Assembly: GCF_006345805.1 (NCBI RefSeq)
Contig: NC_042998.1
Span: forward strand, 3,348,001 to 3,412,000
DNA from: Octopus sinensis
Lineage: Eukaryota
Length of the DNA stretch: 64,000 bases
Reading direction: 5' to 3'
Shown: piece after piece, positions 22,640 to 59,712 of the stretch
Layout: every line of letters begins with the position of its first letter
Position numbering within the stretch: position 1 is the first letter of the stretch
Notes under the pieces: model-generated
What the model was told of the DNA's origin: nothing
The model's input: the letters and a program-made list of their open reading frames with translations, nothing else
Database searches by the model: none
Made by a program: the position numbers and the translations under genes

Positions 22640-22946
22640 TGTTAAGAACGTTGCAGAGTACAGTTTAAAGCTCGTCCACCTTAAGATTTCACCCTGTGCT
22701 ATCCAGTAGTAGTATTGTACGTACGTCCAGGTTTGCATTTAGGCGTTTGTCGTGTAAGAATAGATGATTCAGAAATGTTGGAGTGAACAAGAAGGAGTGC
22801 GGTCGGACATTTATTTTTTTTTAATCACTACAAGTGTTTCTACGCAACATAGTTCTCCAGGCCAGTACGCCTGGAGAACTACGTTGCGTAAAAACAATTG
22901 TAGTGATTAAAAATGAATGTCCAGCCGTACTCCTTGTTCACTCCAA
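22640..22946. mobile_element. Penelope-type terminal remnant with fold-back and degenerate hammerhead motif
   Basis: Inverted arms about 22778-22862 and 22869-22946; ctggaga-tacg ttg cgta-(g)aaa-caattg-ta; homologous piece at 44660-44870. Confidence 0.55.
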
Positions 22947-23260
22947 ACTTTGTAAAGCGTTATATATATATATAATGCTTCACAAATTTATATATATATA
23001 CATATATATATGTATATATATATATGTACATATATATATATGTGTGTGTATATATATATCTATATATATCTATACCTATATCTATATCTATATATGTGTA
23101 TATAGTATATATATATATATATATATATATGTAAAAACGGTAAGATAACAAAAGAAAGAAAGAGACCTCAATATTATGTAAATAGAGGAAATTTATCTAT
23201 AAAATAATATGTACAATTACTCAATAGACAAGATAAAAACATCTCTTCGGTTATCTGGCC

Positions 23261-23323
23261 AGATAACCGAAGAGATGGTGTTGTGGATTTCCACTTCGGC
23301 ATCTGAAACTCAGAGTTTTATCT
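23261..23323 (+). ncRNA. Type I hammerhead-like motif (CCGAAGA core variant) in a fold-back element
   Basis: agataa CCGAAGA gatg...catc t GAAA ctcagag TT ttatct; 6-bp stem I. Confidence 0.55.
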
Positions 23324-23734
23324 TGTCTATTGAGTAATTGTACATATTATTTTATATATATATATATGAAACATAATAATAAATATCTATGTAATTATAG
23401 AAAATTATACCGACACACATGCTCATAAACACACACATATATGTCTCTAGAAGCAAAATAGTTTATATGAAGCAATGTGGGATAGAGTTAAAATTGATTT
23501 AGTTGATTAGGAAAGCCAGTATAACGTAACTTGTGAACACAGGATTGTATGTGTACATCTCTTTTCACCGGACGTCAAGCTCATACATTTCTTGTGTACG
23601 TCCACTTCTCTGTTAATCTTAGTTTATTTGAATTGATTGTTTTTAAAATTATATGTACACACACACACACACACATGTTTACATATATTTTCTGCATTTT
23701 TTTCCTCTCCTTCTTTCTGTGTTTTTCTCTGTGT

Positions 23735-23775
23735 ATCTTTCTGTTGAAGAGCGTAGGCTCGAAACGTTGAGGACT
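23735..23775 (+). ncRNA. Minimal type I hammerhead-like motif (CUGUUGA variant)
   Basis: tcttt CTGTTGA a gagc gtag gctc GAAA c GTT gagga; second copy at 48185-48223. Confidence 0.5.
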
Positions 23776-25019
23776 TGTTTTATTTATATTTCCTGAGCGC
23801 CATATACTAATACAATTGTTCGTTTGTTTTCACCTGCCTTGTCTTTTGTTTATTTTCATAAAGCTTCCCGTTATATATATATATATATATATATATATAT
23901 ATATATATATATATATATATATATATATACATCGCACACACACACACACACAACATATATATATATTATAGAGAGGAGAGAGAGAGAGACAAAGTATGTA
24001 AATGTGTATATTATAATCAATGTGTCAATATGTATGCTTGTGTATGTATATATACTTGCTCATTATCTTTTAAAATCCTTCTAAGCTTGTCTAACATATC
24101 CCTCAATTACTTTTCAAATAAAATCGCTTTCTCTCTTTCCTCGTCTCTCACTTTCGCCCTTCCCCCACTCTCTACCTCTCTTTCTCTCTCTGTGTCTCTC
24201 TTACACACGCATGGAAACACACATAAGTCCGAACACAAAAACGATCATAAATTTTCCATGGGTATTTAGTACATATAGCACTAACGGCGGCGTAGAAGAG
24301 TAAGCCACAAATATGTGACAGTAATATTTTTCAAACCTTGTTTGAAGTGAAGACGGAAATTATAGTCATTCACAATTAATCATTCATTTCTCCCGTTGAC
24401 TTCCACCTTAAGTAGGAGTACAGCCGAAACCGTAAATTTGTGGTGTGTGACATTATTTCACTGACATTGATGAATATTTCACAAACATATACTCATACAT
24501 ACATATACACGTATGTGTGTGTATGTGCATGTGTATATGTGTGTGTATGTATCTGTGTTTATAGATATATATGTATGTGTGCACGCACACATATATATAT
24601 ATACATACATAAATATTTAGCAGAAGTACAGAGTGACTTAAGGTCCAACAATTTCGTGAGTTGGCATTTATCAGACTCTTTACATGTGGAAGAGCTGTGA
24701 GTATATATAGCTGTCGATAAATATATTTGATAAGTGCCAACGCACGAAACTGTCGAACCTTGAGTCACTCAGTTACTTCTGTTAAATATTAGTAAAAATA
24801 CACATATATGTTTGTGTGTCTGTGTTTGTCCCCCAACTATCGCTTGACAGCCGATATCAGTTTGTTTACGTCCCCGTTATCTAGCGGTTCGGCAAAAGAA
24901 ACTGATAGAATATTACTAGGCTTAGAAAGAATGAGTCCTGTGGACGATTCGTTCGACTAAAGGCGGTGCTCCGGCATGGCCGGAGTCAAATGACTGAAGC
25001 CAGTAAAAGCATACACTCA

Positions 25020-57272: not shown

Positions 57273-57581
57273 TAGGGAGGCACATGGCCTAGTGGTTAGA
57301 GCAGCGGACTCGCGGTCGAGAGATCGCGGGTTCGAATCTAAGACCGGGCGATGTGTGTGTTTATGAGCGAAACACCTAAGCTCAATGCGGCTCCGGCAGA
57401 AGGTAATGGCGAACTTCTGCTGACTCTTTCGCCACAACTTTCTCTCACTCTTTCCTCCTGCATCTTGCAGCTCACCTGCGACGGACCGGCGTCCCATCCA
57501 GGTGGGGAACCTATACACCAAGGAAACCGGGAAACCGACCCTTATGAGCCAGGCATGGCTTGAGAAGGAACAAACAACAAA
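57273..57581 (+). mobile_element. SINE family C subfamily, full length with TSD
   Basis: tggcctagtggtt A-box, ggttcgaatc B-box; TSD atttacttta at 57263-57272 and 57582-57591; inserted in a family A tail remnant. Confidence 0.9.
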
Positions 57582-57773
57582 ATTTACTTTAATCTCTGGT
57601 CAAAGCTAAGTGTGGAAACTGATGTTTGTAAGCTTAACTTTTGAAAGCAAGTTTTTTGCATGTTTTCATTGTGTTTTTTTCCATATAACATTAGTGAAGT
57701 ACAAAAATGGAAATATTGTGCAACACAGTCAAAGTCCACCTCGCATTTCATCCGTATACCGTATTCTTCTGTA

Positions 57774-58093
57774 CTTTTATTTTATTTATGTGCCCTTTTC
57801 AAGCTTAGCCAGGTTCATGGGCTCGGTTTCTAGGTTTCTGTGGCCTGTGTGTTTTCCCCAGCTGGACGGGATGCCAGTCCATCGCAGCGTTACCCAAGAA
57901 ATAGGAAGAGAGAGTGAGAGAAAGTTGGGGCGAAAGAGTACAACAGGGGTAGTCACCACTCCCTGCCGGAGCCTCGTGGAGCTTTAGATGTTTTCGCTCA
58001 ATAAACACACACAACGCTCAGTCAGGGAATCGAAACCGCGATCCTCCGACCGCGAGTCCGCTGCCCTAACCACTGGGCCATTGCGCCTCCACA
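57774..58093 (-). mobile_element. SINE family C, full length with TSD
   Basis: TSD attcttctgta at 57763-57773 and 58094-58104; A-rich tail. Confidence 0.92.
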
Positions 58094-59471
58094 ATTCTTC
58101 TGTATACAAGTCGGATTTTTCAATATACAGCCAGATGTATAGGTCGACTAATAAACCATGACGACTTTGGTGGACCAAAACTTCCATGAGAAATGCTGCA
58201 GGATTTGGAAAGACATTGATGATGTTTGGAAGTTTACGCTACAGGTTTACATTATATGTTGACTTGTATTCCGGAAAATATGGTATTTTCAATGAAGTAA
58301 ATTTTAGTAGTGTATTTAAGATTAATTTCATGAGCTACACCATTTCCCACTATGTATATTGGTTTGTCATCCCGTGAGAAAGATTTAATATTCATTACAT
58401 TATGTATGTGTAAGTGTGTGTGTGTATGTATGTGTGTGTGTGTGTCTATGGTGTGTTGCATGAGCATTAGGTTGTGCATCAGACTTAATGTTCTCTAATG
58501 TTTTTAACATCTCTCTTCTGCATATTGTATTCTAATCTCCCCACAGTCATTTATCTATAACTATTCGTATTATCAGATTAACTCTGTTCAACAGTAAAAG
58601 TATATCAGAAGCCTACATTATCCGAGTGAGGAACACACACGCACACTTGCACATACCCAGATATACAAACACATACTCATCGTCCAGAGCCCAAACTGTG
58701 CCGTATTCAATCCAAAACATTTCCTTTAATGACGGCAATTAACCAGAATGACATTCTCCCTTGAGATACAAAAATTATTTCATTTAAATCAGTCCCGCCA
58801 CCATCTGACACATTCTCTATTCTAGCCCAATAAATAGACAGACACTAAATTTAGGAATTTAATACTATCTAGGTTCTGCAAACGTTAAACTTTTTCGCTA
58901 TTAATCTCTATTTTATTATTTAATGATAAAAAAACGATGCATTCTAAATAGGTCAACTATATTAAATTATTTCAAAGACATACAAGGTAAATAAATACAT
59001 TGGCATAATTATATATATATACATATATACATATATATATATATATATATATATATATATATATATAATATATATATATATATATATATATTATATATAT
59101 ATATATATATATATAATATATATATATATAGAGAGAGAGAGAGAGAGAGAGATGAGAAAGTTGGTTGTGAAAGCACGTGGTTGAATATATAGAAAATAGT
59201 AAAAAGTGAAAAAACTACAGAAGGCTTGTTTTAAAAGGTTAAAAAATATATATTTGAGTCAATATGTCTGAAGAATGTTATCAATTTTTTTCTTACAATG
59301 ACATAGTTTAGAAGAAATGACCGGTTTCGCGTTCAGCTTTTCAAATTTCTTATGTCGTTATGTTTATGTTGAGAAGAGTTCCAAATAAGGGGAGGTAATA
59401 TGTGATTTTTTTCACTTTTTACTATTTTCTATATATATATATATATATATATATATATATATATATATATA

Positions 59472-59712
59472 CCGGAGTAAACACATAAATGTGAAACAAG
59501 GTGGAAAAAAGAGTACTCAAATACCAGTGGTAGAGTAATATGCTTTATTTAAAGCAGCAGAAAATTTAACAAAAACCTGTTACTCTGAGTTTCCCGTTGC
59601 CGTTCATCGGACAGTTTTTGCTAGATTCTAGCAAAAACTGTCTGATGAACGGCAACAGGAAACTCAGAGTAACAGGTTTTTGTTAAATTTTCTGCTGCTT
59701 TAAATAAAGTAT
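59472..59712. mobile_element. (TA)n-embedded fold-back element with a hammerhead motif on each arm
   Basis: Arms 59543-59625 and 59627-59709 nearly perfect; ctgt CTGATGA acggcaacag GAAA ctcagag TA acag. Confidence 0.75.

What the first reader, a model, noticed from the sequence alone, without database searches (positions are those of the whole stretch)
22640..59712. Small fold-back elements near (TA)n tracts carrying minimal hammerhead ribozymes
Seen: at least eight short non-coding inserts carry a type I hammerhead layout of stem I - C(U/C)GNNGA-type core - stem II - GAAA - very short, often self-complementary stem III - UH - stem I. They lie at 22.8, 23.3, 23.75, 33.3, 48.2, 52.95, 55.35 and 59.65 kb, mostly in or beside TA microsatellites, and five are head-to-head inverted duplications. 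Stem III sequences (CAGCTG, CAATTG, ACGT, ACTCAGAGT) differ between families. Established: Penelope-like elements carry minimal hammerheads with palindromic stem III thought to cleave as dimers, and often have inverted terminal repeats; a Penelope GIY-YIG fragment is present at 14 kb. Inference: these are several families of non-autonomous or truncated Penelope-type, retrozyme-like units targeting (TA)n. In the fold-backs, either strand would yield an RNA holding a ribozyme (or part of one) and its own antisense.
Basis: partly seen in the sequence, partly recalled or inferred. Interest (0 to 1): 0.75.

Follow-up and report, generated by a model that had tools for sequence, protein, structure and literature searches.

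The report
Penelope retrotransposon stubs carrying hammerheads
These TA-flanked hairpins are short, mostly decayed end-pieces of abundant Penelope-type jumping genes in a likely octopus genome, a known kind of insertion, and their shape suggests that two DNA copies were likely started from the two cut strands and often ran off the front end of an uncut RNA just ahead of the predicted ribozyme.

Summary
The eight inserts are real. Five are fold-backs. Four pass a complete minimal-hammerhead descriptor (0.11 expected in shuffles); four are decayed. They belong to seven repeat families with hundreds to thousands of genomic copies. They are not dedicated retrozymes. Four families (59.6, 23.3, 23.75/48.2, 52.95 kb) run, in longer copies, into Penelope-like coding sequence; a fifth (33.3) does so in one copy; two (22.8, 55.35) stay unlinked. 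The 59.6 family is a Hydra-clade element, and 23.3 and 33.3 likely are. The 14-kb GIY-YIG fragment belongs to another family. In 154 copies picked without regard to the centre, the outer ends are fixed (one long 'tail' end, one short end, both on TA) and the centres vary. So the hairpins are likely made at each insertion, not copied whole. In a fold-back RNA the ribozyme is predicted to be buried. One extra: in the 59.6 family 49 of 118 arm ends pile up 39-47 nt before the cleavage site, at an initiator-like motif, with no excess at the cleavage site. This fits run-off from an uncut transcript. The scan found the same on other DNA. Verdict: new members of a known kind.

The parts
59472..59709 (.). 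Family A two-armed insertion: tail about 59472-59540, long arm (sense on - strand, complete motif 59577-59614), short arm 59625-59709 (sense on +, core at 59642, stem II mutated); TA on both sides. End of a Hydra-clade Penelope-like element.
23130..23352 (.). Family B two-armed insertion: tail about 23130-23200, long arm with a 37-bp deletion, short arm 23256-23352 with a complete motif (23261-23323, +); TA on both sides. End of an element with a Hydra-type GIY-YIG domain about 0.9 kb upstream in long copies.
33059..33432 (.). Family C two-armed insertion: truncated tail 33059-33158, long arm lacking the first core, short arm with core at 33300 and a broken UH site. One copy (L367) runs into a Hydra-type endonuclease about 1 kb upstream.
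22625..22958 (.). Family D two-armed insertion: tail 22625-22777, arms 22778-22946, core CTGGAGA at 22871, both motifs broken; (TG)n on the left, TA on the right. Coding parent not shown.
44645..44854 (-).
23694..23871 (+). Family E single arm ending in (TA)n, complete motif 23736-23773 with core CTGTTGA; end of a 2.7-kb RT + GIY-YIG element (Neptune-like)
48136..48279 (+). Family E-related single arm between TA tracts, first core mutated (48190)
54889..55516 (.). Family F two-armed insertion: tail 54889-55041, arms 55042-55516, cores at 55207 (-) and 55348 (+), both decayed; TA on the left, (ATCT)n on the right. At least 920 nt upstream show no recognisable coding sequence in the longest shared copies.
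52509..53102 (+). Family G single arm (last codons of the ORF, 3' UTR, complete canonical motif 52938-52977) ending in (TA)n; end of an RT + GIY-YIG element
14010..14980 (+). Broken Penelope-like linker and GIY-YIG fragment, split by a 450-bp inverted-repeat insert (14310-14762); a different family from A-G

Best explanation
The inserts are 5'-truncated ends (pseudo-LTR plus tail) of seven abundant repeat families, at least four of which continue into Penelope-like coding sequence, and each fold-back is likely made at insertion by two reverse-transcription events, one primed from each nicked strand of a (TA)n target. Shown: fixed outer ends, one long and one short; variable centres; TA flanks; continuity with coding sequence in long copies; hammerhead-shaped motifs of the published Hydra-clade layout. 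Inferred: the element's enzyme nicks both strands, starts one cDNA at the short site and one at the tail site, and the two cDNAs are joined head to head, often at microhomologies. Both usually come from RNA of the same source copy. Inferred further, for family A and less sharply B and E: many arms are run-off copies of the transcript's own 5' end, which starts a few bases before stem I, so the template is mostly uncleaved RNA. The hairpin copies are likely dead on arrival, because the fold-back buries the motif.
For: Coding parents: A joins an RT + endonuclease frame of 473 + 253 aa, split by one stop, directly behind its tail (L354; also L352, L355, L359). B joins a GIY-YIG domain (L180, L189, L190, L196, L201, L366). 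E shares 2.7 kb with RT and endonuclease among 3 of 3 long copies fetched, G shares 1.6 kb in 2 of 2. C does so in 1 of 38 copies. Fixed ends: A tail end at +105..+108 in 66 of 70 copies and short end at +41..+44 in 46 of 49; B tail end at +103..+111 in 78 of 84; C, D and F short ends cluster at +92, +65 and +95. Variable centres: 42 of 48 (A) and 37 of 40 (B) distinct junctions; 25 of 48 and 24 of 40 have microhomology of 2 nt or more. Neither arm is a copy of the other: the short arm lacks the tail, yet reaches more than 5 nt further upstream than the long arm in 15 of 48 and 22 of 40, in one case by 1.3 kb (L180). Arms share subfamily alleles at 91 of 95 and 233 of 241 sites against 48% and 55% for shuffled pairs; 2 of 20 best-hit B copies have arms of two different subfamilies. 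Pile-up: 49 of 118 A arm ends lie at -47..-39 from the cleavage site, per-base stop rate 0.119 against 0.009 before, 0.020 after and 0.007 at the cleavage site; a YYANWYY motif has its A at -47. In E, 9 of 12 short copies start at -109..-96 and the motif's A is at -108. In vitro, a Penelope enzyme cuts and extends both strands, starts at two sites that bound the tail, and uses unprocessed RNA (PMC11167929, parts 1-2 of 4 read).
Against: No cleavage, transcription start or transcript was shown; the only runs found are contigs whose RNA nature is a guess. The pile-up windows were chosen after seeing the data. B's pile-up is broad (37 of 124 ends over 14 nt) and its motif matches 6 of 7 positions; B also shows 12 ends within 2 nt of the cleavage site (rate 0.022 against 0.008), several explained by stem I microhomology or internal deletion. 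C, D and F show no pile-up, though those samples favour long arms. Two of the seven A ends called at -47 (L261, L272) are alignment artefacts. The motifs at the pile-ups also read as splice acceptors. Asymmetric deletion of palindrome centres after insertion, assembly error and arm-to-arm conversion could mimic some asymmetry and the allele concordance. D and F have no demonstrated coding parent. Pfam gave no hit for the A, E and G protein pieces or the 14-kb fragment, apart from a weak RVT_1 match (E 0.0013) in one G piece.
Confidence: 0.8

Rival explanations
1. The fold-backs are dedicated non-autonomous, retrozyme-like units, copied as whole hairpins or from small RNA circles by borrowed Penelope enzymes.
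For: Best-hit copies of A looked fixed in length (40 of 40 places span nearly the whole query). Short copies outnumber long ones roughly a hundredfold by contig depth. F shows no recognisable coding sequence for at least 920 nt and D has no significant protein match within its shared arm. Animal retrozymes are reported to derive from pLTRs (bioRxiv 10.64898/2026.07.22.740005, part 1 of 5 read).
Against: The fixed length was a selection effect: unbiased copies have 42 of 48 distinct centres. Long copies of A, B, E and G run into Penelope-like coding sequence. Head-to-tail arrays of complete hammerhead monomers, the defining retrozyme trait, were not the pattern in the fetched loci; only a few close tandem pairs appeared in the listings.
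Confidence: 0.1
2. Same parents, but the second arm arises by self-priming or fold-back on an antisense template (the Arkhipova 2013 model), not by a second target-primed event.
For: Arms are allele-concordant in 96-97% of sites; arm 5' ends are correlated (Spearman 0.56 in A, 0.35 in B); the model is in print for head-to-head palindromes (PMC3846280, passages read).
Against: The short arm often holds sequence that the long arm lacks (15 of 48, 22 of 40), and it ends at a fixed site on TA. Two B copies have arms from two subfamilies. Correlation is also expected if both arms run off the same RNA end.
Confidence: 0.08
3. The fold-backs are MITEs of a TA-targeting DNA transposon and the hammerhead layout is chance.
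For: Inverted repeats with TA flanks; Rfam lists no hammerhead over the four motifs tested in focused runs.
Against: One-sided tail, variable centres, single-armed copies and continuity with Penelope-like coding sequence. The motif count is 4 against 0.11 by chance, and the layout matches the published Hydra-clade table.
Confidence: 0.02

Closest known systems
Hydra clade of Penelope-like elements (Craig et al. 2021, PMC8557442; passages, section 11 and parts of Files S1-S2 read), e.g. Hydra-2_Amil, Hydra-1_Obim, Penelope-13_HM
   Same: Family A protein has RWK, DKT, a CxCx5C linker, no CCHH, and flanking CxxC and CxH; B and C endonucleases have the same linker; (TA)n targets; inverted truncated copy at the 5' end. 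A's stem I and stem III match Hydra-2_Amil's entry in File S2 almost letter for letter, and unpaired bases on both sides of stem II are common in that table.
   Different: A, B and C are not Hydra-1_Obim (different hammerhead and, for A, a clearly diverged protein, judged by eye from the supplement). Tails are about 65-140 nt against the 30-40 bp described. Many copies carry C at core position 4.
Poseidon element of Anolis (PAc; Frangieh et al. 2024, PMC11167929, parts 1-2 of 4 read)
   Same: Two reverse-transcription start sites bounding the tail; both strands cut and extended; AT-rich targets; hammerhead dispensable, with unprocessed RNA as template.
   Different: Different clade; in PAc the ORF begins inside the hammerhead, whereas in family A it begins behind the tail. 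The parts read do not discuss run-off at the transcript's 5' end or short fold-backs.
Minimal hammerheads of metazoan PLEs (Cervera and de la Pena 2014, PMC4209133, parts 1-2 of 4 read)
   Same: Type I, short stem I, extra base before stem II, palindromic stem III; mostly solitary truncated copies; pairs 100-700 bp apart on opposite strands already noted.
   Different: Families D and E have G or U at core position 6 in their majority sequence; activity of these variants was not tested here.
Neptune and Nematis clades (as defined in PMC8557442)
   Same: E and G carry a C-terminal GIY-YIG with two cysteines inside the core and a CX2-5CxxC linker, and end in (TA)n.
   Different: Clade not resolved by a tree here; E resembles the Neptune block of that paper's alignment by eye only.
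Metazoan non-LTR retrozymes (bioRxiv 10.64898/2026.07.22.740005, part 1 of 5 read; PMC7229834, search listing only)
   Same: Small, non-coding, type I hammerhead, pLTR-related.
   Different: Retrozymes are head-to-tail tandem monomers; these are truncated ends of longer elements, mostly coding, in head-to-head or single-arm form.

Membership tests
EN+ Penelope-like element | Single ORF with RT and C-terminal GIY-YIG endonuclease | tested here: met
   RT and endonuclease seen for A, E and G. Endonuclease only for B and for C in one copy. Not shown for D and F.
EN+ Penelope-like element | [quoted passage not shown] | tested here: met
   L354 and L355 carry the A end both upstream and downstream of the ORF; not examined for the other families
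EN+ Penelope-like element | Inverted truncated copy at the 5' end and one-sided tail | tested here: met
   48 of 70 A and 40 of 84 B copies two-armed; fixed long and short ends in A, B, C, D, F, G
EN+ Penelope-like element | Placement of the RT in the PLE tree | not tested
   No reference set was available in the script box; 2,195 mostly unnamed relatives found, the best 120 at 43-57% identity
Hydra clade | RWK and DKT motifs, CxCx5C linker, no CCHH | tested here: met
   All present in A (against section 11 of PMC8557442); linker and no CCHH in B and C, whose RT was not recovered
Hydra clade | (TA)n insertion | tested here: met
   67 of 70 (A) and 72 of 84 (B) tail-side flanks; background about 6%
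Type I minimal hammerhead ribozyme | Core, three stems and UH site | tested here: met
   4 of 8 window loci; 6 of 7 family majorities pass, with different stem sequences in each family. Core position 4 or 6 deviates in five families.
Type I minimal hammerhead ribozyme | Self-cleavage as monomer or dimer | not testable with these tools
   Dimer folds are 5-13 kcal/mol below two monomers, through stem III only in some families; this is no test of activity
Non-LTR retrozyme | Head-to-tail tandem monomers, each with a hammerhead, no coding parent | tested here: not met
   A, B, E and G have coding parents and head-to-head or single arms; open for D and F
Non-LTR retrozyme | Circular RNA | not testable with these tools
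   Only contigs of runs guessed to be RNA were available
MITE | Symmetric terminal inverted repeats and fixed length | tested here: not met
   One-sided tail; centres vary

The most novel reading that the evidence does not exclude
The tiny fold-backs are the Penelope equivalent of strong-stop cDNA. The enzyme starts at the two sites in the 5' copy of the pLTR and runs off the uncut transcript's 5' end at an initiator just before stem I. Thousands of dead hairpins would thus map the element's transcription start and show that the hammerhead is normally not cleaved in the RNA that gets inserted.
Probability: 0.4. Interest if true: 0.55.

Novelty: new member of a known kind. Interest (0 to 1): 0.3.

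Why it matters
The anatomy (hammerhead in the pLTR, inverted truncated arm, tail, TA targeting) is published, so the elements themselves are ordinary. Their value is as a large natural record of how Penelope-like elements insert, which PMC8557442 names as an open task. The fixed long and short ends, independent centres and occasional chimeric arms favour two target-primed events over self-priming. The pile-up of arm ends just before the ribozyme gives an exact, testable prediction for the transcription start and says that uncut RNA is the usual template. Family A has near-intact copies, so a Hydra-clade enzyme could be tested in vitro.

Tried and rejected
Rfam: no hammerhead family among the top 150 of 361 rows for the window or over the listed motifs in three focused regions; the one hammerhead row (HH10, E 0.53, 18 bits against a cut-off of 75) lies on the 48.0-kb hairpin and is likely chance. 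The miRNA rows are microsatellite and hairpin noise. Strict descriptor: 1-2 hits. Pfam on the 14-kb fragment and on A, E and G pieces: no hits apart from a weak RVT_1 match in G and a weak GIY-YIG match in one relative. Fixed-length hairpin unit: suggested, rejected. Link of the 14-kb GIY-YIG to families A-G: the few matches in its 30 loci were neighbouring insertions, and its own family ends in a different pLTR. Tail-only DNA search of A returned nothing. Frequent chimeric arms: only 2 of 20 best-hit B copies, and 1 weak case among 88 unbiased two-armed copies. Arm ends at the cleavage site: no excess in A, weak and confounded in B. Pile-up in C, D, F: not seen, in samples biased to long arms. 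Coding parents of D and F: none among 40 and 34 copies; D reads like a decayed endonuclease end by eye only. Expression: no RNA holder listed; contigs of four runs cover the element but may be DNA. Lunse et al. 2016 on dimeric PLE hammerhead variants is not held and was not read; it may bear on the variant cores. Literature searches for a run-off or strong-stop reading: searches listed no Penelope paper with it; one search found only PMC8557442 for octopus hammerheads.
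Full report
Setting. The window lies in a 2.72-Gb animal genome. A family G protein matches a protein labelled Octopus vulgaris at 83%, so an octopus is likely. The window is rich in TA tracts. Positions written +n or -n count from the predicted cleavage site of the hammerhead.

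Observation. All eight loci are present and five are fold-backs. A relaxed descriptor, written after I had seen the loci, finds 4 complete motifs against 0.11 +/- 0.34 in 100 shuffles. The other four are broken in the window copy. The seventh (33.3 kb) has an 11-bp stem II with one mismatch that the descriptor rejects. Only G, and most C copies, have the textbook first core. A, B and F often or always have C at position 4 (A: 30 C to 16 T), E has U and D has G at position 6. That position 6 is a conserved core base is recalled knowledge; activity is untested. Rfam does not list these motifs.

Families. I call them A (59.6 kb), B (23.3), C (33.3), D (22.8), E (23.75, with a relative at 48.2), F (55.35) and G (52.95). 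Exact patterns across the tail-arm junction match 1,910 places for A and 671 for B, with 0 for the reversed controls. First-look candidates were 2,455 (C), 1,381 (D), 1,676 (E), 404 (F) and 1,983 (G); these are rough.

Parents. Long A copies hold an RT and endonuclease frame right behind the tail: L354 has 473 + 253 aa split by one stop, with the same pLTR before and after it. The protein has RWK, DKT, a CxCx5C linker and no CCHH, the Hydra-clade marks in PMC8557442 section 11. That paper's hammerhead table shows the same layout, and Hydra-2_Amil has nearly the same stems I and III as A. A is not Hydra-1_Obim, judged by eye. B runs through a 0.9-kb 3' UTR into a Hydra-type endonuclease in several copies; its RT was not reached. 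C does the same in 1 of 38 copies, and a second copy shares 712 nt of the way. E (3 of 3 long copies, 2.7 kb) and G (2 of 2, 1.6 kb) hold RT and GIY-YIG with a CX2-5CxxC linker. D (40 copies) and F (34 copies) gave no coding link; F shows nothing recognisable for at least 920 nt. The 14-kb fragment is a broken Penelope endonuclease from an eighth family with its own pLTR.

Anatomy. The 40 best hits of A all spanned nearly the whole hairpin, but that was selection. I therefore took copies by the tail pattern alone: 70 of the first 71 listed for A, and 84 for B (from the first 89 listed, leaving out the window's copy, one already held, one duplicate locus and two tandem partners merged with their neighbours; L184 and L185 are a duplicated pair). 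The tail end is fixed (A 66 of 70, B 78 of 84) and so is the short end (A 46 of 49). Both abut TA far above the 6% background. 48 of 70 A and 40 of 84 B copies have a second, inverted arm next to the first; 42 and 37 of these junctions are distinct, and over half have microhomology. Some two-armed copies span 2.7-4.4 kb and include the ORF. This is the arrangement drawn in PMC8557442, and the short hairpins are its smallest form. Target duplications cannot be read inside TA.

How the two arms arise. The long arm has the tail, which the short arm lacks. The short arm reaches more than 5 nt further upstream in 15 of 48 and 22 of 40 copies. Neither arm can then be a plain copy of the other, unless centres were deleted later. 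Arms agree at subfamily sites in 91 of 95 and 233 of 241 cases against about half by chance, so both usually come from one source, or were converted later. Two of 20 best-hit B copies join arms of two subfamilies, which needs two templates. With the in vitro result that a Penelope enzyme extends both cut strands from two sites bounding the tail (PMC11167929), two target-primed events are the best reading. Self-priming (PMC3846280) is the printed rival.

Where arms stop. In A, 49 of 118 arm ends lie at -47..-39, just before stem I; the stop rate is about twelve times that of the stretch before it, and the cleavage site shows no excess. Only one end falls between -48 and -55. An initiator-like YYANWYY has its A at -47. 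The pile-up is seen in several subfamilies and in single-armed copies (10 of 22). In E, 9 of 12 short copies among 20 best hits begin at -109..-96, with the motif's A at -108. In B the excess is broad (37 of 124 at -71..-58) and 12 ends lie near the cleavage site, partly through microhomology. C, D and F show no pile-up, in samples biased to long arms. The windows are post hoc, two A calls at -47 are artefacts, and the motifs also read as splice acceptors; in A the ends extend 5 nt past the AG, which favours a start site. A promoter inside the pLTR is shown for Drosophila Penelope (PMC2377424, passages). I infer run-off from an uncut transcript's 5' end, at 40%. Searches listed no Penelope paper with this reading. 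The scan's earlier reports e1-9937090 and e1-9376174 state it for other genomes; they are unchecked AI notes and not independent support.

Function of the ribozyme here. In A, C, D and F either strand folds into one long arm-to-arm hairpin (A about -143 kcal/mol), and in B the arms pair over stem I and the first core, so the motif is predicted not to form. Cleavage by PLE minimal hammerheads is weak even as dimers (PMC4209133) and is dispensable for insertion in vitro. No RNA evidence was obtained.

Verdict. Real, abundant, and of a known kind: ends of Hydra-clade and Neptune/Nematis-like Penelope elements, with two families unassigned. The scan has reported the same system in this and other genomes. 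Interest 0.3, carried by the testable start-site and two-primer predictions.

Noticed in passing
window 47831-48097: A sixth fold-back with the same anatomy (about 100-nt one-sided tail, TA flanks) but no canonical hammerhead core; relatives in L156, L275 and L171 keep two small hairpins with changed but still pairing stems. Possibly a Naiad-type end or another ribozyme; no convincing Rfam match.
   Followed up: partly
   Followed up: yes
window 14310-14762: A 450-bp element with about 140-bp imperfect terminal inverted repeats splits the Penelope endonuclease fragment; relatives occur in other loci. MITE-like.
   Followed up: partly
L084:2370-2480, L086, L090: The family of the 14-kb fragment ends in (TA)n behind a hammerhead-like motif with a palindromic stem III and an apparently lengthened first core.
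   Followed up: partly
fetched loci L001-L426: 346 descriptor hits in 1.42 Mb (a sample biased to these families), including a dozen or more further hammerhead types in the flanks; the genome is dense in such families.
   Followed up: no
window 36946-40357: 3.4-kb tandem array of a 23-bp unit with long open frames on the + strand.
   Followed up: no
window 17736-19076: 194-bp inverted repeat at 99% identity around 953 nt, of SINE-like sequence.
   Followed up: no
L354:3826-3972: Family A has a polyadenylation-like hexamer just before its short end, so the 5' pLTR copy could also yield a short terminated RNA; B lacks it.
   Followed up: no
families A, B, C, D, F genome-wide: Thousands of near-perfect hairpins could supply double-stranded RNA for editing or small-RNA pathways if read through; speculation, untested.
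   Followed up: no
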